A stretch of DNA of 54,544 nucleotides, counting the filler, from Stramenopiles sp. TOSAG23-6 (taxonomy: Eukaryota): NCBI GenBank assembly GCA_900128565.1. It is 4 parts of 4 records of this genome, joined end to end, with 100 filler letters (N's around TTAATTAATTAA, not from the genome) between each part and the next. Parts side by side here need not be neighbours in the genome. Positions count along the whole stretch, not along the records: positions 13,790 to 27,344 come from LT636163.1; 3 more parts are not named here. One strand, 5' to 3'. Under the pieces are notes generated by a model. That model saw nothing but the letters and a program-made list of their open reading frames with translations, did not search any database and had not been told where the DNA came from. The translations under genes were made by a program, and so were the position numbers. Each line of letters opens with the position of its first letter. Position 1 is the first letter of the stretch. This document shows positions 1,580 through 54,544 of this stretch, piece after piece.

Positions 1580-3021
1580 ATGGGTGACTCAAAATTAAAG
1601 TTTAGCCGTATTGGCAAATCTCTTAGAAAGATTGTTGGTCGCAAACTTAGTTTTAGCTGCACAATTGACGGTAGACAATTTTCTGGTTTGAGTAAGGTAG
1701 CAGAGGGTGGATTTTCTGAGGTGTTCCGTGTCAAAGAAACCACAAAAGGATCGAAAACAAAAGGTTTTCATTTTGCTGTGAAAAAGATGTGTGTGACAGT
1801 AGATACAGAAAAGGATGTTCACCGTGAAATTAGTGTTCATAAGGTTATAGATCATCCAAATTTAATGCCACTACTTGGTTTCGAAATGAGAGAGTCCAAG
1901 GATAAACACCAGGAGGCATTGCTTCTATTCCCTTTATATACTGCAGGTTCACTGTATGATAGTATACGTAATAGAAACACTTTTCTATCTGAACTTGAAA
2001 TTTTACGTGTATGTCGTGGTAGTCTCCGAGGTCTTGCTTCACTTCATGAAAATAATTTATGTCATTTAGATGTAAAACCAAGTAATATTTTATTAAGAAA
2101 TGATAAAAAATCTTCAATTGAAAATGCTGATTTAGCTGTCTTGATGGATTTCGGTTCTGCAGCACCTCGTTGGGTATCGATCAAAACAGCTAATCAGGCT
2201 AGATTGATTGAAGAACGTTGTGCTGAGAAATGTACCTTACCTTTTCGTTCTCCTGAATTATGTATGTTTTATTTTTTTGAAAATTTGCATAAGTTTTTTT
2301 TCGTACTAAATTTTGTACCTAACAAAAAAAAGTTAAATTTTTTTTTTGAAATATTTTTCCAAAATACATTTTATCTAGATTGGAGAAATCTTAGTTCTAA
2401 TGATAATAGAAATGTCTCTACTAAAGCAAGTACATCTACGACTGACCATGTACATGTTAATTCTAAGCGTACTAATGATATCAATACTATACCTTCTACA
2501 TTGAATAAAGACACTTCTGAAGGAGGTGTTTTTGATTATGCTCCATGTGATATTTGGTCATTTGGATGTACTTTATTTAATGCCGCTTTTGGATATTCTC
2601 CATTTGAATCGTCAAAAGAAGGAGTAAAAAAACTTGCAATATGTTTGTTTTCATCATTCATTTTTTATTTTTTTAATTTTTTTAATTTTTTTAATTTGTT
2701 TTATTTTTGTTTTATGGTTTTCAAAGTACCAAATTTTGTACCTAACAAATTTTAAACTCGAAACACTTATTTTTTCACAATATATTAAACGCAAAGTTTT
2801 CAATACCTCCAAATAATAAAACTATGAAATATTCAAAATATATGAGTAAAATTATAAAACTATGTTTAAAAAAGAATCCAAGTAAAAGACCAACGAGTAA
2901 AAATTTACTCTTGGAATTTGACAAGGCAATTTCTTTTCTTGAAGAAATTAAAAATAGTATTGAAAAAAATATAAATATAGAAAATAATTGGCAGCCTTTT
3001 GCAGATGATTCAATGAAATAA
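1580..3021 (+). CDS. STK16: STK16/NAK-family Ser/Thr kinase; exons 1580-2261, 2370-2642, 2786-3021
   Basis: EGGFSEV, FAVKK, HLDVKPSN, LMDFGS, EKCTLPFRSPELF, DIWSFGCTLF...SPFE, LAILNAKFSIP, NPSKRP; C-lobe complete only after removing two GT-AT introns. Confidence 0.8.
2262..2369 (+). mobile_element. Introner-like intron GT...AT, 108 nt, AT direct repeat
   Basis: Family consensus; removal gives the kinase motif SPELF. Confidence 0.8.
2643..2785 (+). mobile_element. Introner-like intron GT...AT, 143 nt, T-rich internal expansion
   Basis: gtttgttttcatc...ttgtacctaac...cacaatatat; removal joins LAI to LNAKFSIPP in frame with ORF 2824. Confidence 0.8.
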
Positions 3022-3165
3022 TAATTAATATTCTTTTGCTAATTGAATCAATAAAATAATTTATATATATATATAGCGTATATATCATCTACATTTAGAC
3101 ATTTGTATATACATACTATTATTAAAACTTTCAAATTTATTTATTTTTTTTTTAAATATTTGTTT

Positions 3166-4044
3166 TTAATGTAATGATTTCCAACCATTTACAATGAATT
3201 CTTGAAAATAAGATGCCAGAGGATTATTAATATTTATCCACCAACTTTGAGAATCTCCAATATGAATATATTCACATCGTCCTTCTAATTGACATTGATG
3301 GCTTTCTTTTTCTGTAGACGCTACAAATATTGAAAATAGAGGTTCTATGTGATGAGGAAAAATGAGACTGGACAACCCAACAATGACAATACATACAAAA
3401 AATATCGTGACTATTATTGAAATATCTTTTTCTATTGGATTTTTGATATGGCGAACAATGAACTTATTCTGAGCATCTGAAAGGCAATTTCTAATTTTAT
3501 TTGCTTGTTGTTGTTTTTCTGTACTTGTCAATGGTGTACCAATAAAGCGACCATCTTCCTCAAAATTTAATTCATTTCGAGGATGCCAAGGATCAAATTT
3601 TGGACGATAATCAACATTGTCACCGCTCGGTGGAAAGGCTAATCCAAATTGATATATTTCTACTTGTTCCTCTGGTTGTAGAAATACTTGGAAGAGAGCA
3701 GTCTCTTGCAACCTATTTTTATTCTTCGAATTGTATTTTTCCCATGCACTTTGACTTGTAAACTCTAAAATGTGGTCACTTTTTGAGACATCTTCAAAAC
3801 CACGTAATGTAAGTGAACGTTTTAAACCAGGTATGCTAAATTTAATTTCGGAATGTTTCTTTTCGAGATCTAATAAAACGTCATATTTTTTAGGTCTCCA
3901 TTTACGACGGCAAAGGACGCAAATAGGTTGGGTATTGCTTGAGCTTGAAGACTTTAAAATAGCTGTGAGGTTATCGAGCCGATTCGTTTTATTTGTTTTC
4001 CTCTTTTTCTTTTGTCGACGTTGCTTTGTACTAGAGGCAACCAT
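3166..4044 (-). CDS. Hypothetical single-pass membrane protein
   Basis: 292-aa ATG ORF, basic N-terminus, hydrophobic segment ISIIVTIFFVCIVIVGLSSLIF. Confidence 0.65.
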   Translation of the reverse strand: MVASSTKQRRQKKKRKTNKTNRLDNLTAILKSSSSSNTQPICVLCRRKWRPKKYDVLLDLEKKHSEIKFSIPGLKRSLTLRGFEDVSKSDHILEFTSQSAWEKYNSKNKNRLQETALFQVFLQPEEQVEIYQFGLAFPPSGDNVDYRPKFDPWHPRNELNFEEDGRFIGTPLTSTEKQQQANKIRNCLSDAQNKFIVRHIKNPIEKDISIIVTIFFVCIVIVGLSSLIFPHHIEPLFSIFVASTEKESHQCQLEGRCEYIHIGDSQSWWININNPLASYFQEFIVNGWKSLH

Positions 4045-12147: not shown

Positions 12148-12434
12148 TGATATCTTTAATATGGAGCTTTATTCGACGCTTACTTTGTCTAAATTATATG
12201 CTAGCAAGTAATTTACAATATACTTTACTACTACAGCCACAGCTACTGAACGTTGTTGTGCAGCGTAGTATACTGATATTGTGTCCTGTGTCGCAGGAGC
12301 GAAAAATAATTTTTGAATAAAAAGTAGATACCCGGTAACGTAAACGATTCGTGAATGACGATTGGTCAACATCTGGTTGCCTTGGCCGCATACAAATTCC
12401 ACTCTTCATATTTTCATTTTACTGTGAGGCACCA

Positions 12435-13612
12435 ATGAGCTTTACATTTTCATCAGAAGGCCCCAAAGCCCCGGAAGCTTCACCGATTGCTTCGCCAGCT
12501 TCATTTTCGTTTAGTAGTTCGATTGGAGTACCTACTCCTAGTGCTGAAGTAGATAGTAATATTTTACCGAATTTTACAGCAGATGAGTCTACACCATTTA
12601 AATTTGCTGGTTTTACAGCAACGTCGCCAACAAAATCTGATTCTACATCCACCGCTTTTCAATTTAATTTGAGTACTGAAGAAGTAGATACGGATACGTC
12701 CGATATTTCAAAGGTGAAAGAATCTTCTTCTTTTGTTTTCGGTGCTTCGACTGGAAAAACTAGTGCGGTTTCTAGTAAGGTAACAACAGAGAATGTTGCC
12801 GAAAAGGACAAAACGTGCTTAGGTTTATTCCCATTTTTAGATTCTCATAGATATGCTTCAGATACTACTGCATTAGCTCAATCGAAACAAAGCAAAAATT
12901 GTCAACATGATGTAAATGTGTCTGTTAGTTTTCCAGATACGGAAATTATTCATTATCTAGATTCATGGGAAGTTTTCTACGCTCGTGGTATTAATCGATC
13001 TTGGCGAAGAGAAGTTCAATCCCCAGTATTTTGGACTGTACAGCGTTGTGCTGTCATAGCTGCGGGTCGGCGTAGTCGAGCCTCTAAATTCATGCGATTA
13101 CTTGACCGGAATAGGTCTAAATTTATGGAGGAACCCGTTGGACCATTGAATATGTTTATATCATTAAAACCTGCATGTGAGGGATGGAATACTGCAATTG
13201 AGTCAATATGGTATCAATCGTCACATATGCCTGGATCTGTTAATTGCATAGATGAACCACACAAACTTATTGTAGCATCTAATACGAGAGATTTTAAAGT
13301 ACTCTCTTTATTGTGCAAAAAAACTGGAGTAGAAATTGTCAGAGATGCGTGTATGTTTTATTTTTTTTTTTACAAAAAAATCGAATTTATTTTTCATACG
13401 AAATTTTGTACCTAACGATTTTTTTTTGTTTTTGAAATATTTTTCCAAAATACATTCACAAGTGAAATAATTTCACCTAAAGTTCTTGGCCTTCCATCAC
13501 CTCCATATTATGTTGTATTGAGACCTGATACGGGGTTTTGTGAATATGGACGATATGCCCATGGTCATTATGATGATTTTACTTTATCTGCAGATTCCGC
13601 ATGTGATATTAT
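12435..13612 (+). CDS. Putative F-box-like protein with Ser/Phe-rich N-terminus; exons 12435-13350, 13456-13612, 3' end missing
   Basis: FPDTEIIHYLDSWEVFYARGINRSWR resembles an F-box; frame joins ORF 13518 after intron removal. Confidence 0.55.
13351..13455 (+). mobile_element. Introner-like intron GT...AT, 105 nt
   Basis: Family consensus; removal gives DA-F-TSEII in frame. Confidence 0.8.
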
Positions 13613-13689
13613 GTACGTTTTATTTTTTTTCAAATTTGATTTTTTTTTCGTACGAAATTTTGTACCTAACAAATTTAAGTTTTTTTTTT
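13613..13689 (+). mobile_element. Introner-like intron, 5' part (contig ends inside it)
   Basis: at|gtacgtttt...ttcgtacgaaattttgtacctaac. Confidence 0.75.
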
Positions 13690-13789
13690 NNNNNNNNNNN
13701 NNNNNNNNNNNNNNNNNNNNNNNNNNNNNNNNNTTAATTAATTAANNNNNNNNNNNNNNNNNNNNNNNNNNNNNNNNNNNNNNNNNNNN
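13690..13789. other. Artificial contig linker
   Basis: 100-nt N run containing TTAATTAATTAA (stops in all frames). Confidence 0.98.
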
Positions 13790-13844
13790 GTACAAAATTT
13801 CGTACGAAAAAAAAATAAATTTGAAATTCATAATGAAAACGTAC
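13790..13844 (-). mobile_element. Introner-like intron, 5' part (contig ends inside it)
   Basis: Reverse complement gtacgttttcattatg...ttcgtacgaaattttgtac. Confidence 0.75.
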
Positions 13845-14576: not shown

Positions 14577-15959
14577 ATGTCGGATGCATCTGACTTTGAG
14601 GACAGTGCGAGCGAAGATTTTGAGGACGAAGATGTCTCTCCACGACAAAACAACAAAGATGACTTTGAAAATGATGTTGAACAAAAAAAAACAGGAAAAA
14701 ATCGACGAAAACCATTAAATTTACGATATTCATCGGCAGATATGTTAGTACCACGAGGCCGAAAGTTGACTGTAGATAAGCTTCAACGTGGTGGGTCAGC
14801 AAACCGTGGTCAAAATCGGGGTACTTTTGGTGAATTTCGTGTGAAAGATCCAAACAAGAAAAGTGTAAAACAATTAAGAGACGAAAAACGTAATGCATGG
14901 AAAAGTGCTAGATGGGACAAATTATATCTTTCTGCACAAAGAGGTCCAACGCAACGTACTCCTCCTAGTAGTCCCATCAAGCGGAAAGAAAATGAATACC
15001 GGAAAAGTCGTCTAAAAGCAGATGCAGCCCGTATGCATGTACGTTTTCATCATCAATATCAAATTTATTTTTTTTTATGGTAAATTTTGTACTTAACGAT
15101 ATTTTTTTGAAATATTTTTTCACAGTACATGCCTTAGCAGAACCTAAACGAAGAAGTTTTCAGAAATTTTCAAGTCCTAATGATGCTAAACATTGTACGT
15201 TTCGTCCAAAAATTACAAAATATCAAAGTGAAAGTAAAAGTGACGAAGATATTGAAGACTCTGTCAGATTTCATAAATATTTAGAGAGAATAGAGGCAAA
15301 AGAATTGTATGTTTTATTTTTTTTTCAATTTCGAATTTATTTTTTTATAGTAAATGTTGTACCTAACGAATTTTTTTTTGAAATATTTTTCCAAAATATA
15401 TGGCCAGACGACAAAATTTGGAGACTAAAATAGGTGAACAAAATTACAAAGTTCGATTAAATAAAAAGATATGCAATGAGTGTGGTGCTGCGCAAAGTTA
15501 CGATGAATATAGAAATAAACGTAATGTATGTTTTATTTTTTTTCAAATTCGAGTTTTTTTTCGTACGAAATTTTGTACCTAACGATTATTTTTTTGAAAT
15601 ATTTTTACAAAATACATTATTGTGGCTGTGGTGGGAAATTTGTTAGAAGCAAAGATTTCGATAATCGAATGAAAATTTTCAATAAAAGAATGGAGGAAGA
15701 TTCTCTCCGAAAAAAGAAAAGTTTACAAATAATCACTAAAAAATTACAAAATGATGTTTTAAGTAAAAGTTTTCGAAGTAGAAATGGAAAACTTATCGAT
15801 ACTAAACAAAATTGGAAAGATGTTAACTTTCTTGAAAGAATGAACGAACATGAAGAGAAACGAAAAGAAAGACTGGAAAAGTCTCAAAAAAAATATCATT
15901 TGGAGCGACTTCGAAAAAATGGAGACGAAAATGAAAATACTGAGATTGTTGAAAACTAG
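14577..15959 (+). CDS. Hypothetical basic/charged protein with CxxC...CxC motif; exons 14577-15038, 15131-15306, 15402-15525, 15618-15959
   Basis: Four consecutive ORFs are joined in frame by removing three family introns; HCTFRPKI and CNEC...RNYCGC motifs. Confidence 0.7.
15039..15130 (+). mobile_element. Introner-like intron GT...AT, 92 nt, AT direct repeat
   Basis: cat|gtacgtttt...cacagtacat|gcc; an in-frame GT-AG alternative (15031-15125) also exists. Confidence 0.7.
15307..15401 (+). mobile_element. Introner-like intron GT...AT, 95 nt
   Basis: tt|gtatgtttt...ccaaaatatat|g; an in-frame AG at 15407 is an alternative acceptor. Confidence 0.7.
15526..15617 (+). mobile_element. Introner-like intron GT...AT, 92 nt, AT direct repeat
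   Basis: aat|gtatg...aatacat|tat tgt ggc tgt; no in-frame AG nearby. Confidence 0.8.
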
Positions 15960-16258: not shown

Positions 16259-17728
16259 TTTCCTTTTTTATTTGCAATTCTTTATTATTTGCCGAGGCCA
16301 TTTGCTTCATCTTTTGGTTTCGTATTTCGTGTTCAAACATTAACTGCCATCTAGGTTTTTGTAATGACGAAATATAACGTTTTGAGTTAAATACATTTCT
16401 CCTCCTTTGCTGAACGTTTTCGCAGTTGTTTAGAACTTGCATCCAATAAGATACTTCTGCATATTTTAGACCTTTAAACTTATTACAAATACTATCAAAA
16501 TGTTGAAAGGATTTTTCACCTTGAGTATCCAGAGATGATAAAAGTGCTGTGCAAAAATAGGTCAAAATTCATAATTCGATGAGTATAAAATTTGGTACAA
16601 AATATTTTTTTTTGAAATGAATGGTTAGGGTTAGGGTTACGTACAATTTCTGTAACTCCATCGAAACGACGCACATCTCTCGACGCAACAAGACCAGATT
16701 TTAATAACATATGTAAAAGGTTCAGTATCAAAGATTGTACTACTTCATGTTCTCTTTGAACAAGTGATGTATTGTGAAAAAAAAATTAAATTTGAAATTT
16801 GTTAGGTACAAAATTTCGTATGAAAATAAAAATATAAATTTGAAATTCATGATGAAAACAAACCTGCTTCTAATAAACGTAAACCACTACGAATTTGTTT
16901 TTCCAATACAATTCGTCTTTGAATATTTACTGGTCCTGAACACGGCAAAAGCAAAACTTCATCTTGAAGATATCGAACTAAATTTTCTTCTATTGATCCA
17001 GTCAATGGATCCATCAATTTTCGATAAAATCGAATCTTTGGTATTTCATACGTATTGTGAAAAAATATTTCAATTTTTTTTTCGTTAGGTACGAAATTTC
17101 GTATGAAAAAAAAATTAAATTAGAAATTCATATAAAACATACACGTAAATCGTAAGACATTCAATATGTCTTGCTTCTTTTGAAATACACCATCATTTTC
17201 TATGCTCAAACTTTCCATATGATTTAAAGTATCATGTCCAGTGCTCAAAGTTCCCTTATGATTTAACTTTTCATTTTCAATGCTTAACGTTCCTCTATGA
17301 TTTAACTTACGATTACCTAATCTCCGTTGTAATCCTGTTTTCGTGTTTAACTGTTGTTGAGAATGAAATTCATCCACAGTATCACTTTTTGTAGGAAATA
17401 ACTTCAAAAGTTGGTCGGATAAAAAAGCAGAACGAAAACAACGTTGTACTGAACAAAACGTTGCAGCCGCTAGCAAATAGTTTTTTAGTAGTCGCATACA
17501 ATGCTGGGCTTTTTCTTCGCCAATGGGTCGCATTCTTACCCCAGAACTCATCGAAACTAATCTAGCAAATTCAATTTTATTCTGGTTTGATTTATCAATA
17601 GTACTTCTTGTAATCTTGCGCTTTGGATACATGTGAACAAGACTTGGAATTCGAAGGTTTCGCGGACGACTCACTGACTCATCTTTCACCTGAAAAAGGC
17701 AGCGAAGCACGTTGGATCTTTCACTCAT
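16233..17728 (-). CDS. Hypothetical protein; exons 17728-17143, 17049-16864, 16766-16645, 16541-16233
   Basis: One continuous frame after removing three family introns (FT-Y-EIPK, LEA-A-LVQR, TEI-LSSLD). Confidence 0.7.
16542..16644 (-). mobile_element. Degenerate introner-like intron GT...TT, TT direct repeat, contains a (CCCTAA)n insert
   Basis: att|gtacgtaaccctaaccctaacc...cacagcactt|tta; a GT-AG alternative (16640-16547) is also in frame. Confidence 0.6.
16767..16863 (-). mobile_element. Introner-like intron GT...AT, 97 nt
   Basis: ag|gtttgttttcatcatg...cacaatacat|ca, phase 1 on both sides. Confidence 0.8.
17050..17142 (-). mobile_element. Introner-like intron GT...GT, 93 nt, GT direct repeat
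   Basis: acgt|gtatgtttt...cacaatacgt|at; contains an in-frame stop. Confidence 0.8.
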
Positions 17729-18073: not shown

Positions 18074-21000
18074 ATGTTACAGATCGCATACATTAAAACG
18101 TTGATCATACTCCTTTTAAGTCAAAAAGGAAACGCGAGTGGGACTTATTTTTTTGCTGCAACACGGAAGGATATTAATAATAATCAACCTCCTAGTGGAA
18201 GTACTGCTGGCGGGGGTATATTTGAAGTTAAATTGTACAACCGTGTTCATGATACCGACCCCACTAAGACCGGTGCGGAAACATACAAACACGATATAGT
18301 AATAAGTTCATTTGCGTTCAATGATCCAATTGCTCCAGGTGGGTTTAAATATAAAGACGCTGATGGCGATGGTAAAGATATATCCCTGCAATATGTAACT
18401 GTAGATGGTGCAGCGGCAGAGTGTAACATATCTACATCTCCATATTCTTTAGAGTGTGTATACCCACCAGTAGAAGACTTGGGAGCAGAGTTGGAAGTAA
18501 GCTATATACTAAGTACCTCTCATTATACGCAATCCCTCTATGACATGACCGCAGGATATTGCAGTGATGAGAGTAAGAACAAAAGTGAGGGAAATAATCA
18601 GTGTTTGGATGTAAGTGATTGTGGAAACACAAAAGGCTGTGAAGTGAGGTCGTATGATAATGAATGTGTTAGATCCACAGATTCAACAAAATGTGGAAAC
18701 AATAATGGTAATTTCGTCAAAACTGGAACTTGTCGAGAAGACACAGGAAAACCATGCAGTGATGCTACTACTCAAGGAGATTGTGAAAAGAATACAATTC
18801 CCAAAAGGGTAGAGTATTGTAAATGGAATTCCTCTTCTTGTGAAAGAAAGAATATTGACGAATGTGTAGTCGAAAGAAGAGAATATCGACCATTCACTGT
18901 AAATCTTGATCCACCAAAGATTTATAATATAAGTGGTTGTACTAAATCGACCTCAAAGGAGACCGTCACATCCAATTGTCCGCGCCAAGGAGGTACAAAA
19001 ATTACAATTAATGGTATGAATTTTGGTGAATGGGGTGCAGTTGTTCTTGTAGATGGAAAAACTTGTAAGAATGTTCAACACATAAGTACTCGTTATAGCA
19101 ACACTAATACCAGCATAAATGGCTTGTGTAAAGATACATGCTTGAGAACTGCCAAAAACTTAACCGATTGCTATAATGATCATCGCCCAAAATTATCGTT
19201 TGGTACTAGACAAACAAATGAGTGCAAATTCGAAAATTACGAGTGTGTTCAAACTACTGCATTTGACTGTAGTACTCTTGAAACAAGAACTGACTGCGAT
19301 AGTAAGAGCGGTTGTGGATGGTTTGGATCAAATAATACCGAAGCTTTTGCTAAGTATTGTGGAATAAACCCTCCAGCGCCAACTCCAACTCCAACAAAGC
19401 AAGATATCAAATATTTTGCAGGAAAGTGTTCAAGTAGTTATACATCACAAACAACATGTGCCTTAACCACAGACGGTACAAAAACATGGTCTTGCGCCAA
19501 CACTGCAAAGCACACCACATTAGAGTGCATCCTTCCTGAAATGAACCTTCCAGGTAAAGACGAGTATAAAAATGTACAAGTCATTGTAGAGGGAGCTGTT
19601 TCGAGCGCAGCATCGCTTATCAAATACCAGACCTGTGACGCAGGTCAAGTTCAAGACAGTTTTCATTGCTCGGGGTGTAGTCCTGGAAAATTCTCCACGT
19701 TACCTGATTCGACGTCGTGCACCACATGTACCGATATGACAGAATACGCAGCATGTACAAGTTCAGGGATGTGTAATTCATGCCCTACCAATAGCTCACG
19801 TCACTCAAGTTTGACATCGTGTACATGCAATGGAGGATACTTTGCGTTAGATCCGGATATCATAGACCAACAAGGGACTTGTTCGGATGAAACCAAAGTT
19901 ACAAAGGTTGATTGTATAACAACTGGTGCGGGTACATGTAGTGAAACCAAATATAATAATCAACGAGTTCAATGTTTAGATAGTGGAACTTGCTACATAG
20001 GGAAATGTTCTAATTCATCTTTTACGAATAAAAAGATTTGCGAGAAAAACACAGAAACATGGACAAGTGATGGTTATTGCTCAGATGAAACAAAAACTAC
20101 AGAAAATCTCTGTACTACAGCAAAAGGTACATGGACAAACTTTGAAGATGAAGGAAGTTGTACAGACAACAAAAGTACGAATAAAACGGATTGTGAAAAA
20201 GAAAAGAATGGAACATGGAACAGTACTAAAAGTTTGTGTAGTGATAATACGAGTAAAACAGAGAACGATTGTACGAAAAATAAGTTTACTTGGACCTATA
20301 AAATTACTACAAAACCTGATTGTACAGCGCATGATCCCACCGGCTCATGGGCACACACAAATACGTGGACGTCAAAAAACACATGGGTGATACGAAAATC
20401 TGGAACTGGAACTTGTTCTGATCCCACACATACAAGTGAAACAAGTTGCATACAAAGTGGTGAATGTTCTGATAGTGGAAAAGTATGGAAAAGTAGCGAT
20501 GGTGCGAAGCCTACTGATATCAAAGCTCTGTCCAAAGCAGACTGTATAAAGTATTCAATGACATGGACAAGTAAGAATGTGTGGAATGATGGATGCAAAA
20601 GCACATTAAAATGTTATCCTCTTGAATCAAAGCCAGGTCAAATAGTACTTGGTGTCGATGTATCTTTTATTTTTTTCAATTTCTAATTTATTTATTTTTC
20701 GTACGAAATTCCGTACCTAACAAATTTTACAAAAAAAATATATTTTTCACAATACATGGACTTCAAAGTAATACAGCGGGTCTATATGCTCCAGATACTG
20801 CTGATAAACCATTGGATTACTTTACTGAAACATTTACAGGTACAATATCAAATTTCCAAATGAAGATTTCCCCAGGATATTGGCAAGATCCAAAAGCATT
20901 TCGAAGTTATATCTTAAACATAGAGAAAGATGGTCTGTTTAATTTACCGACTACTACAGGTAACCGAAGATTAGAAACAAGTTCTGATGATAGTAGTACG

Positions 21001-23498
21001 ACTGTTACTTTTCCATGGACTCAACGATATGTTGGTTTATTTGAACTTTGTCCTGGTGATGCTATATATTGCTTAGGTGGTACTAGCTGGAATGCATGTG
21101 ATGTGGGACATGATCCAAATGCACCACTATGTGCCTATTGTCTCCCTGGTTATCAGCAAAATGCTGACTATGGGTGTGATAAGTGTAGTTCAAAAGGTAA
21201 CACTATTCTGTACATTTTCGCGCTTTTTGTTGCGTTTGTTGCAATAATTCTTATTGCTGTTTACGCGTGGAAGTATGTCTCTAAGCTGGCATTCTTTGCT
21301 AGCTGGGCGCAAGCACAACAAGATTTCTCTGAAGGTGCAAAGGATCTCAATGAGTCTTTTGGACTATGTGAACAGTGGTCAATGCTCATTCGTATACAAA
21401 GTGACAAGAGTGATTATACACCTGGCTCAATGCGAGGTGGTGCAACACAAAAGCTTAAAATTTTGATTGGTCTCATTCAAGTGGTTGCTGCACTTCAAAG
21501 TGCGATACAAATTCAATGGCCGCAATCTGTTCAGAACTTGTTTAAGAAATTAGATATCGTTAATTTTAATTTTATTGCTATGTTAGAGTTGAACTGTCTT
21601 AATGACACCTTTAGCTTCCGAAGTTGGTTTCTTATGATTTGCGCAATGCCAATGTTTCTATTAGCATTTATGCGCATTTTGGAAATATTGTATATACATG
21701 TTTTTCTACGATGTAAGAAAGATCTATCACAGGATGAAAAGAAACAGAAAATAGAAACGGCTCAATCTACTTTATTCCGTGTGAACTTGGTTTTACTCTT
21801 TTTGATGTATCCTCAAGTTGTACAAGTTATTTGCAAAATGCTTAGACCTTGTCATGAACTCTTGTCAGGTAAAAGGTGGTTACATGCAGACTATCAAGTT
21901 AATTGTGATGACAACCAGCACACAATATATATTATACTCGCCTTTATTGCTACATTGTTGTACATTATTGGTATACCTGGATGGTTTCTTTTTTTATTAT
22001 ATAGGAAAAAAACTGATTTATACGAACAAACGCCTCCACACACAGATGGTGCATTTTATTCTGAAGCATCTGGTGGTTGGCATCGATGGAATGATGACCT
22101 GTTACCAACATTGGGTTTCTTGTATTATGCATATGAGCCTAAGTTTTATTGGTGGGAAGTTTTAGAAATGATTCGAAAGCTGTTTTTTGCTGGTATAATT
22201 GTCTTGATAACACCAGGTTCTCCATCTCAGGTTGTTGTTGGTTTGCTTTTATCATTTGCTTTTACTGTTATCAGCGCATATTGTGAACCATACATTAGTG
22301 ACACTGATGATATTACGGCACTGATAGCACATACCCAGATTGCAATGATTCTATTTAGCGCTTTGTTGATTAAAGCTGACGTAAGTAGTGCAGATAATTA
22401 TGATGAGGATACTTTTGGTGCTGTTATTCTTTTTGTCATTCTTGTTCCTGTCATCTTGTGTATTCTAATGATTGTAGCGCTTGTTTTTATGCCTCCGTTT
22501 GAGAGTTGGCGTTTCGATGTAAATCGACGTAATAAGCTTGGTCTTAAGCCAATTTCGTTTTGTAGTTATATGCATCGTGTTTGGGTTCAAAATGAAAAAG
22601 AGTCAATAGACGAGGATAAACTTGCGTCAGTGTATATGAATCCATGTATGTTTTATTTTTTTTCAAATTCGAATTTATTTTTCGTACGAAATTTTGTGCC
22701 TAACGATTTTTTTTTGAAATATTTTTCCAAAATACATCTGTTACGACAAAGATGAGTCACTGTAGAAAATCAATTGCAGAATTTCAGGAACACGCAGAGA
22801 AGGCAGGTTTTTTACTTACTCATATATTGAAAGTTTTTTCTCGATTAGATATTTTACTTGAAGGACTTGCTCAAGCAGAGATTGATGAAGAACGCGGCAA
22901 TCAATTTCATGTTCGCTTTGAGCATGCTTTAGATCAATTAGTTTGTATATTTGATGATTTGAGTGGAGCTAGTCTCAAGCTTGAGGATGTGTATGAGTTG
23001 AATTCTCGAATGGTCGAACTTGAAATTTATGTTTGTGGGAATACAAAAGCAAAGAAAAGTGTTTTAGAGGAAAAAAGTATGAATGGCGATCAAGACATAG
23101 ACTCAAAGACAAAACCAGAAGATACCAAAGTTACAGTGAATGGTGTTGTGGACAAGGATGAATCTTCTTTTGTAGATGCAGAGGGAAAACAGTTAGTTGA
23201 TGAGCAAGCTGCTGAATATGACGAATTGTTTGGTAAAGAATCTGATATTGTAGTTGAGTTGACACGCGTGCTTTTAAATGTGAAGAAGCTTCGTCGGCGT
23301 TTGATGAGTAGAGTTGGAAATAGAAAACATTTGATTCATTCAAAAATCAAAATCAAAAAGTCGTTGTTCTCCTTCAATAAGCTACTTGTAAAGCCTGGCA
23401 AACTTTTGAAGAAACTGCCAAGCATAAAAATTGGTAAACGAAAAAATAATACTGTAAAAGGTGAAGATGTTCGTGTTGATGTTGGTTCTAAAGATTAA
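18074..23498 (+). CDS. Large Cys-rich multi-pass membrane/receptor-like protein; exons 18074-20659, 20758-22645, 22738-23498
   Basis: Signal peptide, IPT/TIG-like CPRQGGTKITINGMNFG, CSPGKFS and GTCSD repeats, then a multi-TM block with KLKILIGLIQV and GFLYYAYEPKFYWWEVLEMIRK. Confidence 0.85.
20660..20757 (+). mobile_element. Introner-like intron GT...AT, 98 nt, AT direct repeat
   Basis: gat|gtatctttt...cacaatacat|gga; joins ORF 18062 to the frame of ORF 20812. Confidence 0.8.
22646..22737 (+). mobile_element. Introner-like intron GT...AT, 92 nt, AT direct repeat
   Basis: ccat|gtatg...aatacat|ct; joins ORF 20812 to the frame of ORF 22752. Confidence 0.8.
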
Positions 23499-23725: not shown

Positions 23726-26700
23726 ATGTCCACAAGTCACTTGGGTATGGGTGATATGTGTGGAGTTCCGAATGGCTGGGGCGACGTAGGTTTAGTTGCT
23801 TCGAATCAACCATTCGTGCGGCCACTGTTTGCTGTAGGCAGAGAAAATAAAAATATTAGTGGTGTGGATGCAGTTTGTGACACTGCAAGTCTTGTTGATG
23901 GTGCTTGTGGTTCACTCACTAGTAATACTAGGTAAGTGTATAATTCTTAAATTGGCTCACTCTATCCATGAAATTTCTTCTCATTTACATTTGTGTGTAG
24001 TCTTATGTTTTTCTAGATACAGTCTTCTTCTCTTTTACCCGTATTTATAAATGAAACACTATGTGAGATTGCATGTATCTACAAACAGATTTCATTCAAA
24101 GATGATCATGGCAGTTTATTTTTGTCTTGTGTATTTTTTCATCAATTTTGTTGTATAAATGTTAGGCTTTTTCAACTCACTTTTTGCTATTTTTTCATGA
24201 ACTTCATTCCACAGCTTACCTCCTACTGATCAAGCGACGCAGGCTATGGAAGCGCTTGGTTTGGGCACAACATTTGGGGCTTCTGTAGTTATGAATGAAA
24301 CACAATCAGTTGGTGCTCTACGTAGTTTAGGTGGTGAACGTTTTCATTCACAGCGGCATGAACCTCCCAGTGCCATTGGTAATATAGGTAACGTGAAACG
24401 TCAGGAATCACCAAGCGCTCTCTCTAGTTCTTTTGGCAATAAATTCCCCCAACTTGTCCCGGATAGTCTTTGTACAACACAACCTTTGATTCCTAGTGTA
24501 AATAATGCTCATAACCAAACGTATAATTCCCTTGAAAAAAAGAGAAATATTTCTCGACGAAGAGATTCTCGTCATTTGATAGGTGGTATGTTTTCTAATG
24601 AGCTTTCTACTGGTTATTTTAAGTCACAAAATGAAAGTAGCGTTCATGATAACAACATATCCACAACATTGGATGATATTCATGTTGCGGATAAATCGTT
24701 TCTGTTTGGATCATCTCATTCAAAATTCAGATGTGAGCAGAATACGTGTACGTTTTCATTTCAATTTCGAATTTATTCTTTTTTATAAGAAATTTTGTAC
24801 CTAACAAAAATATTTTGAAATATTTTTTCACAATAACTTACGAAACACGAAATCTGAAACTCCAATGGTACAAAGTCCCCCATTACCCATTCCATTGTAT
24901 TGTACTGAAGATAATGGTACATATCTCAGGCAACAACGACAAAGGAAATCTTCATTTGTACCAAGCAATAGTATAAATATGTGGAGTGTGCAACACAAAA
25001 CACAAAAACAAAATACAGATCAATGTGCGTTTTCTTCATCATGAATTTTAAATTTTTTTTCGTACGACATTTTGTACCTAACGATTTTTATAAAAAAAAT
25101 ATTTTTTCACAATATATGTGCGACTTGGATTCCTTCTTCTCTTGTTGGAACATCTCCATCTCTAGTTAATGTGAATAGAAACACTCTGGACAATGATGCT
25201 GGAGCGTTGCGACATCATCAATATACAAATAGTTCATCATATCGACGAAGTATGAATCAAGCGATTCTTAACCCTAACCCTAACAGTATGAATCATCAAG
25301 CGATTCTTTCCAGCTCGTCACCGAATAAAGAAACTACACAATCAAAAAGTCAGTATAATTCACAGTTTCATGGACGATCTAATGTGATATCTCCAAGAAG
25401 TGTATCTCCAAGAAATGATATGTGTAACAGCATGAACGAAAATACTAAAAATATGTCATGTATCCAAACTAGCTATAATAATCAAGGTAATTTATCTGTT
25501 AAAAAATCACCAAATAATCAAGGTAATTTATCTGTTAAAAAATCACCGAAACAAAGATCTTTCTTAGCTGCAGCACGTATGGCTCCAGTAGTTCATACAC
25601 CAATTGCTGTAAAGACAGGCTTTTCAAATACACCAATTGCTGTAAAGACAGGCTTTTCAAGGATACGACAAACAAGTCCAAATTTTAATGTTGTTTCAAG
25701 TCCTGTTTCGGAAACTCAGACGCCTGGATTTCACCGTAATAAAATTCTCAGTAAGAACGATAAGTACACATCTGAATCGACTTGCTTCAATAAAGACAAA
25801 AGAAATTCCAATAATGGTGGTTGGCTAAAAGTACCGTTGAGATCTCAGGGCACTGACACTAACCCTAATAACACTAATACGAAACAATATGAAGATTTTG
25901 AAGAAATTGTTCCTGGTGCACATCCTAATAAGGGAAGTAATTCACCACAGAAATCAATTACGCGGCTTTCTTTAAGAAGTGGTGGGCTTCCTACAACTCC
26001 TGTTGTTCCACTCTCTGTAAAACGAACCACAACTCCTGTCTGGACTGCTGTTTGCAATAAAGGGAAATGTACAGAACGAAGACGTCTTGATCGAGAACAA
26101 ATAGAACGAAAACGTCTTGATCGAGAACAAATAGAACGAAAACGTCTTGATCAAGAACAAATAGAAGCCGAATTACAATTAAAACAGAAAGAAGCTGAAT
26201 TACAATTAAAACAGAAAGAAACGAATAAATCAGCTGAATTACTGAAAATACAAGAAGAACAAATACAAGGTAAACAAAAGAATAATAAAAAGAAGCAAAA
26301 GCAAAAGAAAGCAAAGGAAGAAGCCAGGGAGGAAGCTGAAGCAGAAATATCTGTTTTGAAAGAGACATCGAATTATCGAAAGCAAAACGTCGAAATTGAA
26401 AAACCAATAGAAAAACTTCCAGCCAAAGTTCTACGAGCCAGAGCAAAGGCAAAAGCCAAAGCTGATGCCGACGCTGCTCGTATTGAAATTGCTGCACGTG
26501 TAGATGCAATAGAATTACCAAAGTCGAATGGTGAACACGAAATACCGTTGGAGTGTCCGGATGCTTTGGATATTCATATAAATACCAAGGATTTGCGTCA
26601 CAAAAAAAAGAAGAAACGAGGGAAGAAGAAAAAGAAAAAGAGGAAAAAGAAGCAGTCAGCTGATAATAGTGGTAGTGTCGATGGTGCATTTGGTAGCCGT

Positions 26701-27261: not shown

Positions 27262-27344
27262 GTATGTTTTATTTTTTTTCAAATTGAAGTTTTTTTTCGT
27301 ACGAAATTTTGTACCTAACGATTTTTTTTGAAATATTTTTCCAA
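27262..27344 (+). mobile_element. Introner-like intron (contig ends inside it)
   Basis: cat|gtatgtttt...gtacctaacg...gaaatatttttccaa. Confidence 0.75.
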
Positions 27345-27444
27345 NNNNNNNNNNNNNNNNNNNNNNNNNNNNNNNNNNNNNNNNNNNNTTAATTAATTAA
27401 NNNNNNNNNNNNNNNNNNNNNNNNNNNNNNNNNNNNNNNNNNNN
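27345..27444. other. Artificial contig linker
   Basis: 100-nt N run containing TTAATTAATTAA. Confidence 0.98.
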
Positions 27445-41091: not shown

Positions 41092-41180
41092 TTTTATTTT
41101 TTTTTCAATTTCGAATTTATTTTTCGTACGAAATTTTGTACCTAACGATATTTTTTTTGAAATAATTTTCCAAAATACAT
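41092..41180 (+). mobile_element. Introner-like intron, donor cut off by contig start, ends in AT
   Basis: ...ttcgtacgaaattttgtacctaacg...ccaaaatacat. Confidence 0.75.
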
Positions 41181-41846
41181 GATGCAGGCTTTCGGGCCTC
41201 GGTTTTCTTCCTGGGGCATTCAAGTGCAAAGAATGGAACTACTTGATATGCGACCAAAGAAGGGTCAAACTTTTGAAATGATGAAAAAACAGATGATTGC
41301 TGAACGTAATAGGCGTGCTGAATTTATTATTGCTGAAGGTAATAAAGCTGCCGTTCGTTTGCGATCAGAAGGCACGAAACGTGTCAAATTGAATTTGGGT
41401 TTGGCAGAACAGGAAAGTCTTCGAAAAAGATCTGAAGGAGAACGTGACTCTAAGATTGAAATCGCCCGTGCTGAAAGTCAATCATTAGATACAATAGCAC
41501 AAGCTATAACAGGTGGCAATTGTAGCCAAACAGACTATGTATGTTTTATTTTTTTTTCAAATTCGATTTTTTTTCGTACGAAAATTTGTACCTAACGATT
41601 TTTTTTCGTACGAAAATATTTTCCAAAATACATATGGTAGCACAGAGATATATAGATTTATTTAGGGACGTTTTGTCTCGTGTAAAAAGAAAAACTCTGT
41701 ACTTTCCGTATTTAGCAAGCGGCATATCTGGTCTTGTTGGACATCTTCCAAAAGTATTTGGTGCTGACGCTAAGCCAAAAACAATTCCAATTAAACGTAA
41801 AAAGGATGCGACTGGATCAAGTGGTGAATTTTCAGATTTAAGTTAG
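41181..41846 (+). CDS. SPFH/band-7 (stomatin/QmcA-like) protein, 3' part; exons 41181-41538, 41634-41846
   Basis: WGIQVQRMELLDMRP...MKKQMIAERNRRAEFIIAEG.K...SEG; YMVAQRY after splicing. Confidence 0.85.
41539..41633 (+). mobile_element. Introner-like intron GT...AT, 95 nt, AT direct repeat
   Basis: tat|gtatg...aatacat|atg gta gca cag. Confidence 0.85.
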
Positions 41847-54488: not shown

Positions 54489-54544
54489 ATGTATTTTAGA
54501 AAAATATTTCAAAAAAAAATCGTTAGGTACAAAATTTCGTACGA
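54489..54544 (-). mobile_element. Introner-like intron, 3' part (truncated at window end), ends in AT
   Basis: Reverse complement tcgtacgaaattttgtacctaacg...ctaaaatacat|gta. Confidence 0.75.

What the first reader, a model, noticed from the sequence alone, without database searches (positions are those of the whole stretch)
16542..17142. Acceptor dinucleotide can mirror the upstream exon end: 2-bp target-site duplication of an introner transposon
Seen: in 11 of 19 complete copies the last 2 nt of the upstream exon equal the last 2 nt of the intron. Nine are AT/AT; the informative ones are GT/GT (17050-17142) and TT/TT (16542-16644). The sequence between the repeats has short inverted termini GTAY...RTAC (ATGTAT...ATACAT with the AT repeat), and 16 of 19 upstream exons end in T. 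Known: introners in Micromonas and Aureococcus are non-autonomous DNA transposons that co-opt a splice site from the target site so that splicing restores the coding sequence. Inference: here the element supplies donor and branch site, and the duplicated target dinucleotide (preferentially AT) is used as the acceptor whatever its identity. No transposase is visible in this window.
Basis: partly seen in the sequence, partly recalled or inferred. Interest (0 to 1): 0.85.

Follow-up and report, generated by a model that had tools for sequence, protein, structure and literature searches.

The report
Mobile introns that end in AT
Genes of an unidentified marine protist are interrupted by near-identical introns of about 95 bases that start with the usual GT but end in AT instead of AG; they look like small mobile elements, but the proposed two-base target duplication has only weak support.

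Summary
Of 19 complete family introns, 11 have the same last two bases in the upstream exon and in the intron: 9 AT/AT, GT/GT at 17050-17142 and TT/TT at 16542-16644. 16 of 19 upstream exons end in T.

The family is real. There are 25 introns in 54 kb, all on the coding strand. Each has a GTAYGT donor, a TACCTAAC box and a ...AATAC-AT end. Reading frames rule out an AG acceptor in most copies. One polyA-RNA contig removes exactly 92 nt at 15039-15130, passing an AG 5 nt upstream.

The mirror claim is marginal. Shuffling gives P=0.016, or 0.12 without the degenerate TT/TT copy. 16 of 19 introns end in AT whatever precedes them. The least diverged copies match no better than older ones. AT is its own complement, so AT/AT fits a duplication, an intrinsic AT end or a junction RNA helix equally.

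No transposase, no empty site and only 4-nt inverted ends were found. Verdict: a real introner-like GT...AT intron family. A 2-bp duplication is plausible (about 0.5). "Any dinucleotide serves as acceptor" is unproven (about 0.3). New variant of a known kind.

The parts
2262..2369 (+). Family intron, 108 nt, exon end AT / intron end AT, phase 1, in a protein-kinase gene
   Evidence: an in-frame AG alternative lies at +9
2643..2785 (+). Family intron, 143 nt (T-rich expansion), AT/AT, phase 1
   Evidence: the AT acceptor restores the kinase C-lobe reading ...LAI|LNAKFSIPP; the nearest AG (+11) is out of frame
13351..13455 (+). Family intron, 105 nt, GT/AT (no mirror), phase 1
   Evidence: first AG (+7) is out of frame
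15039..15130 (+). Family intron, 92 nt, AT/AT, phase 0; removal seen in RNA
   Evidence: table 8: polyA-RNA contig (X6 record 10, 290 nt) lies on 14818-15035 and 15128-15199 with nothing between. That is a 92-nt skip, slidable by 3 over CAT. The AGs at -5, +7 and +10 are not used
15307..15401 (+). Family intron, 95 nt, TT/AT (no mirror), phase 2
   Evidence: an in-frame AG alternative lies at +6
15526..15617 (+). Family intron, 92 nt, AT/AT, phase 0; 96% identical to the consensus
16542..16644 (-). Degenerate family intron, 103 nt, TT/TT, phase 0; the 5' part holds telomere-like CCCTAA repeats
   Evidence: nhmmer E=2.9e-4 on the 3' half only. The TT acceptor is the family-homologous position and opens a 102-codon frame (P about 5e-4 by composition). 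The AG 5 nt upstream gives a frame that stops after 27 codons
16767..16863 (-). Family intron, 97 nt, AG/AT (no mirror), phase 1, donor GTTTGT
   Evidence: first AG (+13) is out of frame, the second (+15) is in frame
17050..17142 (-). Family intron, 93 nt, GT/GT, phase 1; one of the two informative copies
   Evidence: In-frame acceptor choices are ...ATA| or ...ACGT|; the next in-frame site gives a TAA stop. The only nearby AG (+14) is out of frame
20660..20757 (+). Family intron, 98 nt, AT/AT, phase 0
   Evidence: DNA metagenome contigs end inside it from both sides (table 8)
22646..22737 (+). Family intron, 92 nt, AT/AT, phase 1; 99% identical to the consensus
   Evidence: metagenome contigs of other copies stop matching after 22737
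24748..24838 (+). Family intron, 91 nt, GT/CT (no mirror), phase 1
   Evidence: In-frame choices are ...AATA| or ...AACT|; the next in-frame site gives a TGA stop. There is no AG within 36 nt
25025..25117 (+). Family intron, 93 nt, AT/AT, phase 1, donor GTGCGT
   Evidence: no AG from -30 to +45
41539..41633 (+). Family intron, 95 nt, AT/AT, phase 0
   Evidence: an in-frame AG alternative lies at +12
42185..42274 (-). Family intron, 90 nt, GT/AT (no mirror), phase 0
43618..43787 (-). Family intron with an internal tandem duplication, 170 nt, AA/AT (no mirror), phase 1
45156..45320 (-). Diverged family intron, 165 nt, AT/AT, phase 1; an internal repeat includes 7 nt of the upstream exon plus the intron start
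   Evidence: only weak nhmmer hits
46458..46558 (-). Family intron, 101 nt, CT/AT (no mirror), phase 1, donor GTAAGT
46955..47053 (-). Family intron, 99 nt, TA/AT (no mirror), phase 1
   Evidence: Sliding the borders 2 nt left (an AT..AC-type reading) would create an in-frame TAA
1..56 (+). 3' part of a family intron cut by the contig end; ends in AG instead of AT
13613..13689 (+). 5' part of a family intron cut by the contig end; upstream exon ends AT
13790..13844 (-). 5' part of a family intron cut by the contig end; upstream exon ends CA
27262..27344 (+). 5' part of a family intron cut by the contig end; upstream exon ends CAT
41092..41180 (+). 3' part of a family intron cut by the contig end; ends AT, next exon base is G
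54489..54544 (-). 3' part of a family intron cut by the contig end; ends AT, next exon bases are GTA

Best explanation
This is a family of small mobile introns (introner-like, MITE-sized, about 90-105 nt) that has invaded coding exons of a compact, AT-rich marine protist genome in very many copies.

Each copy brings a strong U2-type donor (GTAYGT) and a yeast-like branch box (TACCTAAC). The 3' cut is not made at AG. It is made at a fixed place, two bases past a conserved ..AATAC, 34-47 nt behind the branch box, so the intron reads GT...AT.

The two junctions form the interrupted palindrome (C)AT|GTA...TAC-AT|(G). The most likely origin is insertion at AT, preferably within C-AT-G, with duplication of those two bases. 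The upstream copy stays in the exon and the downstream copy becomes the end of the intron, so splicing restores the original coding sequence.

Shown: the family, its strand bias, non-AG ends from reading frames, and removal of one copy in RNA. Inferred: mobility at the DNA level, the duplication, the use of the TACCTAAC box as branch site, and the position-based choice of the 3' site.
For: Family:
- 26 nhmmer hits with E<1e-3 stand for 24 introns plus one fragment. With the diverged intron 45156-45320 that makes 25 introns in 54 kb.
- All are on the coding strand of the flanking ORFs (24 clear; 1-56 plausible).
- Six of the eight contig ends lie inside copies.
- In a DNA metagenome (X3), depth over family positions is 9,708-39,143 against about 8 on unique flanks.

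Non-AG 3' end:
- The nearest AG is in frame in only 2 of the 18 copies that have one nearby. An in-frame AG within 15 nt exists in 4 of 19.
- An RNA contig removes exactly 92 nt at 15039-15130 and ignores AGs at -5, +7 and +10.
- Kinase C-lobe continuity supports the AT acceptor at 2643-2785.

Duplication and palindrome:
- 11 of 19 copies match, P=0.016.
- Exon -1 is T in 16 of 19, exon -2 is A in 11 of 19, exon -3 is C in 7 of 19, and the next exon starts with G in 8 of 19, against 17% C or G in the window.
- In the 15 joint rows shown of 351, X3 contigs from other copies begin to match at AT or CAT before GTATGT (35 contigs, 22 of them including the C). They stop matching after ..ACAT in 46 of 52 contigs.
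- Three of the mismatching exon ends differ from AT only at a synonymous third codon position: 13351, 24748 and 46558 (plus frames).

Known introners are mostly transposons that co-opt a splice site from the duplication (review PMC11282704, section 6 read).
Against: - AT ends 16 of 19 complete copies (18 of 22 with the cut copies) whatever the exon ends in. AT may therefore simply belong to the element.
- Of the copies with a non-AT exon end, only 2 of 10 mirror it.
- The 7 copies at least 84% identical to the consensus show the repeat in 3 cases. Identity to the consensus does not differ between AT and non-AT exon ends (0.77 vs 0.74, Mann-Whitney P=0.30).
- Inverted termini are only about 4 nt (GTAY/RTAC), and the 5' half of them is needed as the donor anyway.
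- No transposase, integrase or reverse transcriptase in 26 ORFs scanned.
- No empty site. All 7 copies reached by contigs of an independent 2024 metagenome are occupied, including in a contig that differs by 142 letters and 38 gaps over about 2.3 kb (table 8).
- No antisense or intergenic copy was found, although selection in a roughly 90% coding window would remove those.
- An AT duplication of 2 bp matches no transposon superfamily I can name (Tc1/mariner makes TA; recalled, not tested).
- Only one junction is confirmed by RNA, and it is slidable by 3 nt.
Confidence: 0.5

Rival explanations
1. There is no duplication. The AT is the element's own 3' end and the whole inserted unit is GT...AT. 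The family spreads through RNA (reverse splicing or an excised intron, then copying into DNA) or by site-specific recombination. The exon context (C)AT|...|G is a preferred insertion or splicing context. One possible reason is that exon -2/-1 pair with intron -1/-2, which extends a short helix between the intron ends and brings the two cut sites together. On this reading GT/GT and TT/TT are coincidences.
For: - 16 of 19 introns end in AT regardless of the exon.
- All copies are in the sense orientation and inside genes.
- There are no real terminal inverted repeats and no transposase.
- Junction pairing (exon -2..intron +4 with intron -6..-1) is possible at 14-19 of 19 copies per position. The two exon bases can both pair with the intron end in 12 of 19 copies, one more than are identical (my count from the exon and intron end letters). 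This count includes the GT/AT copies that the duplication model fails.
- RNAfold puts this end helix at probability above 0.9 in 4 of 19 copies.
- Sites are fixed in an independent population.
- If the intron end mutated from AT, the chance that its -2 base equals the exon's is about 0.2 for G and 0.16 for T.
Against: - Two of the three complete copies with a non-AT end mirror the exon exactly (P=0.016 overall).
- TT/TT cannot pair.
- Exon -3 and next-exon +1 do not pair more than shuffled (5 of 19 against a mean of 8.2).
- No covariation is visible because the columns hardly vary.
- The helix is weak, AU-rich and absent from the predicted fold of most copies.
- Reverse splicing as a source of intron families has no documented case that I could cite from the papers read.
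Confidence: 0.33
2. The element is GTAY...RTAC and duplicates whatever dinucleotide it lands on (AT preferred). The downstream copy is used as acceptor whatever it is, because the 3' cut is set by position only.
For: - GT/GT at 17050-17142 and TT/TT at 16542-16644 both sit at the family-homologous position and in frame.
- 24748-24838 ends in CT (or TA), so a non-AT, non-AG end is tolerated.
- The AG 5 nt before the cut is ignored in RNA at 15039-15130.
Against: - It rests on two copies. One of them is barely a family member (nhmmer E=2.9e-4, 61% identity to the consensus).
- 24748-24838 (GT/CT) does not mirror.
- Seven copies with non-AT exon ends all carry AT.
- All three non-AT ends keep the final T, as expected for single mutations of AT.
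- Neither informative junction could be verified: no homologue of that gene exists in three searches and it has almost no RNA cover.
Confidence: 0.3
3. The true borders lie two bases to the left. On this reading these are AT...AC introns (ATGTAT...ATAC), a known terminal pair, and GT...AT is an artefact of where a slidable junction is drawn.
For: - In the 9 AT/AT copies, and in the RNA-confirmed one, both readings give the same mRNA.
- A and C as first and last bases are a known compatible pair (recalled).
- One mirusvirus family is reported to be enriched in AT-AC introns with a WCTAAC branch consensus (PMC12768974, passages read).
Against: - With borders at GT...NT, 19 of 19 copies start with GT and 16 of 19 end in AT.
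- Shifted by two, only 9 of 19 start with AT and 13 of 19 end in AC.
- The shift creates an in-frame TAA at 46955-47053.
- The conserved GTAYGT is the standard U1/U6 target with the cut before G (established knowledge).
- U12-type signals are absent (see membership test).
Confidence: 0.07
4. These are not introns at all. They would be an artefact of single-cell amplification or assembly, or DNA segments eliminated from a somatic genome.
For: - The window is four contigs of a fragmentary assembly, with at least one chimera-like inverted duplication and one deletion.
- The joined form was seen in only one contig of an RNA library, which can contain DNA.
Against: - Independent metagenome DNA contigs from another year carry the copies at the same sites (table 8).
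- The copies sit on the sense strand, carry donor and branch signals, and keep the frames of long ORFs.
- The joined form comes from a polyA library in which neighbouring non-expressed stretches have depth 0-0.25 (table 2).
Confidence: 0.02

Closest known systems
Introners of Micromonas pusilla and Aureococcus anophagefferens (Huff et al. 2016; known to me only through the review PMC11282704, section 6 and figure legends read)
   Same: Short non-autonomous elements present as many near-identical introns in unrelated genes. The element supplies one splice site and the other is taken from the target-site duplication, so splicing restores the coding sequence.
   Different: Those use canonical GT/GC...AG borders, with a 3-nt TCA target in the example shown in the review. 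Here the 3' end is AT, the putative duplication is 2 nt, the inverted ends are only about 4 nt, and the duplication itself is not proven.
MITE-derived non-canonical introns of the tunicate Fritillaria borealis (Henriet et al. 2019; via review PMC11282704, section 6 read)
   Same: Species-specific introns with non-canonical ends, terminal inverted repeats and duplications. An exonic repeat (TAC) forms the 3' splice site. AG-AT is one of the two commonest border pairs, so an AT 3' end has a precedent. They are removed by a modified U2 spliceosome.
   Different: In Fritillaria the 5' end is also non-canonical (AG) and many families exist. Here the donor is a textbook GTAYGT, a yeast-like branch box is present, and only the 3' end departs from the rule. 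The organism is a protist, not an animal.
Introner elements among the non-canonical introns of Amoebophrya (PMC7789003; abstract and passages read)
   Same: A marine protist with repeated introns, direct repeats of 3-5 nt overlapping the exon/intron borders, inverted repeats that can pair the two intron ends, very variable border dinucleotides, and no convincing transposase.
   Different: Amoebophrya has 8-20-nt inverted repeats, variable 5' ends, GC-richer genes (54-58% quoted for some) and no U1 snRNA found. Here the inverted repeats are about 4 nt, the donor is invariant GT, and the window is 34% G+C.
Nonconventional and 'intermediate' introns of euglenids, and the Euglena-like introns reported from marine diplonemid single cells (PMC6221363, PMC12501133, PMC12621601, PMC10161547: passages read; Gawryluk et al. 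2016 not held)
   Same: Non-AG borders, slidable junctions with short direct repeats, pairing of the intron ends, and a suspected MITE origin. 'Intermediate' introns combine a conventional 5' end with an unconventional 3' end.
   Different: The Euglena code 5'-N3-CDG...CHG-N5-6|R is not present here. The ends here pair over at most about 6 AU-rich bp. A strong donor and a branch box point to the spliceosome. The window's NMD3 has no euglenozoan among its 120 best listed matches, so a diplonemid origin is not supported.
U12-type (minor) introns, including the expanded set in Physarum (via PMC11282704; GT-AT as a rare U12 subtype is recalled)
   Same: The 3' terminal dinucleotide is flexible and chosen by distance. 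AT-AC and GT-AT borders occur.
   Different: No /RTATCCTT donor is present, and no TCCTTAAC box lies 10-15 nt from the 3' end. The branch-like box here lies 34-47 nt upstream.

Membership tests
Introner (transposon-derived intron family) | Many near-identical introns in unrelated genes of one genome | tested here: met
   25 introns in 54 kb in at least 8 different genes. Pairwise identity reaches 95%. Family positions have 1,200-4,800 times the unique depth in a DNA metagenome (other organisms may contribute).
Introner (transposon-derived intron family) | Removed from mRNA so that the reading frame is restored | tested here: met
   One RNA contig shows an exact 92-nt removal at 15039-15130. 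Frames are restored in all 19 complete copies with the inferred borders. RNA proof exists for 1 of 19 only.
Introner (transposon-derived intron family) | Target-site duplication flanking the element | tested here: inconclusive
   11 of 19 copies match, of which 9 are the uninformative AT/AT. P=0.016, or 0.12 without one degenerate copy. The least diverged copies are no better (3 of 7).
Introner (transposon-derived intron family) | Terminal inverted repeats or other transposon termini | tested here: inconclusive
   Only GTAY...RTAC (15 of 19 and 13 of 19 copies). With the AT repeat the palindrome is ATGTAT/ATACAT. No longer complementarity exists: position 5 with -7 pairs in 0 of 19.
Introner (transposon-derived intron family) | Autonomous partner with a transposase, or homology to a known transposon | not testable with these tools
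   None in the window (0 of 26 ORFs). No whole genome is held. No family copy was found in the public collections scanned.
Introner (transposon-derived intron family) | Presence/absence polymorphism or empty orthologous sites | tested here: not met
   All 7 copies reached by DNA contigs of run X3 are occupied (table 8). Only one metagenome was examined and joints were only partly listed, so this is weak.
Euglenid-type nonconventional intron | CAG at +4..+6 and CTG at -8..-6, 3-nt and 5-6-nt spacers, purine starting the next exon (PMC12501133) | tested here: not met
   Positions +4..+6 are TGT or CGT, and the 3' end is ..AAAATACAT or ..CACAATACAT. The next exon starts with a purine in 10 of 19.
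Euglenid-type nonconventional intron | Stable pairing that brings the two intron ends together | tested here: inconclusive
   A 6-bp AU-rich end helix is possible in most copies. It is predicted with probability above 0.9 in 4 of 19 and above 0.2 in 8 of 19.
U12-type intron | /RTATCCTT donor and a TCCTTAAC branch site 10-15 nt from the 3' end | tested here: not met
   The donor is GTAYGTTTT. The only branch-like box (TACCTAAC) lies 34-47 nt from the 3' end.
Canonical U2-type GT-AG intron | AG at the 3' end | tested here: not met
   0 of 19 complete copies end in AG. One cut copy (1-56) does. The nearest AG is out of frame in 16 of the 18 copies that have one and is bypassed in RNA at 15039-15130.

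The most novel reading that the evidence does not exclude
A marine protist's spliceosome still reads a textbook donor and branch site. It places the second cut by position, two bases past a 4-nt terminal repeat, and does not look for AG. A tiny mobile element with a 2-bp duplication is therefore removed without a scar whatever dinucleotide it landed on. This has let it settle in coding exons thousands of times.
Probability: 0.3. Interest if true: 0.85.

Novelty: new variant of a known kind. Interest (0 to 1): 0.62.

Why it matters
If confirmed, this family is a natural experiment on how the 3' splice site is chosen. The donor and branch signals are canonical, yet AG is neither present nor used even when one lies 5 nt away. 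That separates 3'-site choice from the AG rule in a way that engineered substrates rarely do.

It would add a GT...AT class to the short list of lineages where transposon-like introns coincide with relaxed splice-site rules (Fritillaria, Amoebophrya, euglenids).

It also has a practical side. Gene finders that insist on GT-AG will break almost every multi-exon gene of this organism, and assemblies break at these repeats: six of eight contig ends here lie inside copies.

The RNA contig is, as far as I could find, direct evidence that such non-AG introns of an uncultured marine protist are really removed.

Tried and rejected
Tools and data not available:
- No whole genome is held.
- Gawryluk et al. 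2016 is not held.
The introner catalogues of PMC9860276 and PMC12130899 (Dataset S2) could list this family, and I could not check.

More copies from public collections:
- The 20-nt core has 0 matches in viral contigs and 0 in metagenome contigs.
- It has one match in prokaryote genomes, a Bacteroidales MAG. I judge that chance level for a 20-mer in 596 Gb.
- An 18-nt degenerate core gave 66 metagenome loci. nhmmer finds only 28-59-nt partial matches around the seed, none a family copy.

Junction checks by homology:
- Exon 1 of the gene holding both informative copies has no longer relative, no Pfam domain in any of its four exons and no hit among 1.84 billion representatives.
- The 61-aa exon between 24748-24838 and 25025-25117 has no candidate.

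Organism and RNA families:
- Rfam finds nothing in the window.
- The Atlas search says only that the query is NMD3.
- Lineage: NMD3's named best hits are fungi, oomycetes and a choanoflagellate at 41-46% identity, with no euglenozoan among the 120 listed. I dropped the diplonemid idea and leave the lineage open.

Readings rejected:
- U12-type, the Euglena code and the AT-AC register (see membership test and rivals).
- A TA duplication (mariner-like) in another register. It would need an 8-10-nt palindromic target at every site, would leave no inverted repeats, and would delete 6 nt of coding sequence.

Age test: identity to the consensus versus presence of the repeat shows no relation.

Read laying: stretches without RNA cover are not used as evidence. 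The high depth of intron sequence in RNA runs (1,100-3,400 against about 3 on exons) could be unspliced RNA, excised introns or a trace of DNA multiplied by copy number, so I draw nothing from it. Only 15 of 351 joints and 22 of 810 loose ends were printed, so counts are partial.

Literature: no paper in the library holds both 'GT-AT' and 'introner'. Wider searches found no description of this family.
Full report
WHAT THE WINDOW IS

The window is 34% G+C and is eukaryotic. It is not one stretch of chromosome. Three linkers of 44 N, a 12-nt six-frame stop spacer and 44 N (13690-13789, 27345-27444, 40992-41091) join four contigs. Six of the eight contig ends lie inside copies of the repeat discussed here, so the assembly broke at this repeat.

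Genes are densely packed on both strands. They include a protein kinase, NMD3, a BspA-type LRR protein, a MYND-finger protein and many ORFs without a Pfam family. Near-identical DNA is held by two small DNA runs of a named organism (coded; possibly the source, so not counted as support) and by seawater metagenomes and metatranscriptomes of other years.

THE OBSERVATION

Repeat finding, a motif scan and a profile built from 15 copies define one family. There are 26 nhmmer hits with E<1e-3. They stand for 24 introns and one 38-nt fragment lying antisense inside a long ORF. With one diverged member (45156-45320) this makes 25 introns: 19 complete and 6 cut by contig ends (coordinates checked).

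A typical copy is 90-105 nt. It starts with GTAYGT followed by a T-rich stretch, has a central GTAC..GTAC palindrome running into a TACCTAAC box, and ends ..AATAC plus two more bases.

I fixed the donor at GT and put the acceptor at the family-homologous position that keeps the long open frames on both sides.
- 9 AT/AT, 1 GT/GT (17050-17142) and 1 TT/TT (16542-16644).
- 8 non-matching copies: GT/AT twice, TT/AT, AG/AT, GT/CT, AA/AT, CT/AT and TA/AT.
- 16 of 19 upstream exons end in T.

With the cut copies added, the exon end is AT in 11 of 22 and the intron end is AT in 18 of 22. The four others are GT, TT, CT and AG.

ARE THE BORDERS REAL?

Three lines of evidence say the 3' end is not AG.

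(i) Frames. Within -30 to +45 nt of the inferred end, the nearest AG is in frame in only 2 of the 18 copies that have one. An in-frame AG within 15 nt exists in 4 of 19 copies: 2262-2369, 15307-15401, 16767-16863 and 41539-41633. One copy has no AG at all in that range.

(ii) RNA. In a polyA metatranscriptome, a 290-nt contig (X6 record 10) lies on 14818-15035 and 15128-15199 with nothing between (table 8). Exactly 92 nt are missing. Because CAT stands at both junctions, the cut can be drawn as 15036-15127 up to 15039-15130. None of the four drawings is GT-AG. The AGs at -5, +7 and +10 are not used.

(iii) Homology. At 2643-2785 the AT acceptor joins ...LAI to LNAKFSIPP.., the expected continuation of a kinase C-lobe, and the nearest AG is out of frame.

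The GT...AT drawing is the most uniform. 19 of 19 copies start with GT and 16 of 19 end in AT. Slid two bases left, only 9 of 19 start with AT and 13 of 19 end in AC, and 46955-47053 would acquire an in-frame TAA.

For the two informative copies only frames are available. At 17050-17142 the in-frame choices are ...ATA| and ...ACGT|, and the next in-frame site gives a stop. At 16542-16644 the TT end is the family-homologous position and opens a 102-codon frame (about 5e-4 by base composition), whereas the AG 5 nt upstream leads to a stop after 27 codons. Their gene has no Pfam domain and no relative in any of three searches, and it has almost no RNA cover. These two junctions therefore remain inferences.

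IS THE MIRROR MORE THAN CHANCE?

Re-pairing the 19 intron ends with the 19 exon ends gives 7.9 matches on average and P(>=11)=0.016. Without 16542-16644 the P is 0.12. That copy is a weak family member: nhmmer E=2.9e-4 on its 3' half only, and 61% identity to the consensus.

The AT/AT pairs add nothing. The signal is that two of the three complete copies with a non-AT end repeat the exon end. All three non-AT ends keep the final T, which is what single mutations of AT would give. The -2 base of the exon is G in 4 and T in 3 of 19 copies, so chance matches are not rare.

Of the 7 copies at least 84% identical to the consensus, 3 show the repeat. Identity does not differ between copies with and without an AT exon end (0.77 vs 0.74, P=0.30).

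On the other hand, three mismatching exon ends (13351-13455, 24748-24838, 46458-46558) differ from AT only at a synonymous third codon position. That fits later drift of the exon copy.

WHAT ELSE THE FLANKS SHOW

The junctions form an interrupted palindrome, (C)AT|GTA...TAC-AT|(G). In the window:
- Exon -3 is C in 7 of 19.
- Exon -2 is A in 11 and G in 4 of 19.
- Exon -1 is T in 16 of 19.
- The next exon starts with G in 8 of 19.
- The background is 17% for C and for G.

The metagenome run X3 extends this to copies elsewhere in the genome. In the joint rows printed (15 of 351), 35 contigs begin to match window copy 27262-27344 at or before the AT, and 22 of them include the C. 46 of 52 contigs stop matching copy 22646-22737 right after ..ACAT, as do most of the loose ends printed there. 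11 contigs share the G after the AT of 15307-15401 (tables 5 and 7).

So (C)AT before and AT(G) behind are family-wide. A symmetric target C-AT-G cut with a 2-bp stagger would give this. An element whose own end is AT and which prefers, or is only tolerated in, a CAT|G context would give it too.

AT is also its own complement. The same bases allow an RNA helix of exon -2..intron +4 with intron -6..-1, pairable in 14-19 of 19 copies per position. Both exon bases can pair with the intron end in 12 of 19 copies (my count from the end letters), against 11 of 19 that are identical. The helix reading accounts for the GT/AT copies and fails TT/TT. The duplication reading does the reverse.

RNAfold gives the end helix a probability above 0.9 in 4 copies and above 0.2 in 8 of 19. 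It is short and AU-rich, and no covariation can be seen because the columns hardly vary.

MOBILITY

In favour:
- Up to 95% identity between copies in unrelated genes.
- Two subfamilies, with ends ..CCAAAATAC and ..TTCACAATAC.
- One copy per about 2 kb.
- Depth of 9,708-39,143 on family positions against about 8 on unique DNA in X3, that is of the order of a thousand or more copies if they all belong to this organism.

Missing:
- No transposase, integrase or reverse transcriptase among 26 ORFs.
- No inverted ends beyond 4 nt.
- No copy outside a gene or on the antisense strand, except a 38-nt fragment.
- No empty site. The eight X3 contig ends that reach 7 different copies all run into the intron, including a contig that differs by 142 letters and 38 gaps over about 2.3 kb (table 8).
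- No family copy in the public viral, metagenome or prokaryote collections scanned.

Several copies carry internal tandem duplications (41539-41633, 43618-43787, 45156-45320, 46955-47053). These show slippage, not insertion.

HOW IT MOST LIKELY WORKS

The conserved GTAYGT and TACCTAAC are what U1/U6 and U2 recognise in yeast-like introns (established knowledge), so the first step is probably spliceosomal. That is inferred, not shown.

The second cut falls two bases past ..AATAC, 34-47 nt behind the box. The consensus has no AG in between, and where an AG has arisen (15039-15130) it is ignored. I therefore favour a 3' site set by position or by the ..AATAC context, perhaps helped by the short end helix.

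For the origin I put about 0.5 on insertion with a 2-bp duplication at AT. I put about 0.33 on an element that carries its own AT and makes no duplication (RNA-mediated spread or site-specific recombination at a TAC-AT-GTA core). I put small odds on an AT...AC register or an artefact.

COMPARISON WITH WHAT IS KNOWN

The idea that a transposon-like intron takes a splice site from its duplication is established for Micromonas and Aureococcus, with canonical borders. Non-canonical versions are described for:
- Fritillaria borealis: AG-AC and AG-AT borders, with an exonic TAC repeat forming the 3' site.
- Amoebophrya: 3-5-nt direct repeats over the borders and 8-20-nt inverted repeats.
- Euglenids: slidable junctions and paired ends.

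Sources are PMC11282704 (section 6), PMC7789003 (passages) and PMC12501133 (passages).

This family differs in keeping a textbook donor and branch box while only the acceptor departs. It also has a 2-nt repeat and almost no inverted ends. It fails the Euglena code and the U12 signals (membership test).

Euglena-like introns were reported from marine diplonemid single cells without RNA support (PMC10161547 and PMC12621601, passages). I could not read that report. The window's NMD3 gives no hint of a euglenozoan, so I leave the lineage open.

One mirusvirus family is reported to be enriched in AT-AC introns with a WCTAAC branch consensus (PMC12768974, passages). Given the slidable borders, this could be the same class. 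That is untested.

I found no paper that describes GT...AT introners.

VERDICT

- The family, and its non-AG removal, is real and unusual.
- The specific inference, that a 2-bp duplication of any dinucleotide serves as acceptor, is possible but rests on two unverified junctions.
- I file it as a new variant of a known kind.

Noticed in passing
13690-13789, 27345-27444, 40992-41091: The window is four separate contigs joined by linkers (44 N, a 12-nt all-frame stop spacer, 44 N). Adjacency across them means nothing. Six of the eight contig ends lie inside family introns.
   Followed up: yes
27445-29000 and 39436-40991: The third contig carries a 100% identical inverted duplication of at least 1,556 nt at its two ends, including two ORFs of 225 and 235 aa. 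It looks like an amplification or assembly chimera rather than biology.
   Followed up: partly
31366-32950 (+), break near 31597-31610: The NMD3 gene changes frame and lacks 22 residues that are present in a 99% identical 549-aa protein from another assembly (P0001) and in a 72% identical relative (P0002). That corresponds to a 64-nt deletion in this copy. The bases at the break read GTAAGGTAC, which resembles the two family ends joined. The cause is unknown: artefact, allele or footprint.
   Followed up: partly
16620-16644 (-): The degenerate intron 16542-16644 starts GTACGTAA and then carries about 2.5 telomere-like CCCTAA units in place of the usual T-rich 5' part.
   Followed up: no
28120/28125-28214 (+) and its mirror copy near 40222-40316 (-): A non-family intron candidate with GTAAGT, a CTAAT box and CACAG. 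The AG acceptor keeps the frame only with the weaker donor GTGTCG five bases upstream. With GTAAGT the frame would need an end in CA. This suggests AG-type introns coexist with the family, but it is unresolved.
   Followed up: partly
all 19 complete copies: Intron phase is skewed: 12 in phase 1, 6 in phase 0 and 1 in phase 2. In phase 1 the consensus intron is open in frame from end to end, so a retained 3n-long copy would add residues instead of stopping translation.
   Followed up: no
51820-51857 (+), 48725-48762 (+): Two short matches to the central part of the family (E=2.6e-5 and 0.004) lie antisense inside the uninterrupted ORF of the giant minus-strand gene. They may be chance or an old fragment.
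   Followed up: no
41903-54544 (-): One giant gene of more than 4,000 codons with no Pfam match appears to run through the whole fourth contig. It is interrupted by six family introns.
   Followed up: no
7072-12168 (-), 532-1084: A 1,698-aa ORF is built of long tandem repeats (297-nt and about 550-nt units). The BspA-type LRR gene carries 69-nt repeats.
   Followed up: no
intron positions in RNA runs X6-X8: Intron-family sequence is 300-1,000 times deeper than exons in polyA RNA libraries. This could be unspliced or excised intron RNA, or a trace of DNA multiplied by copy number.
   Followed up: no
45156-45320 (-): An internal repeat of this intron includes the last 7 bases of the upstream exon plus the intron start. 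It is a tandem duplication across the exon-intron border.
   Followed up: no
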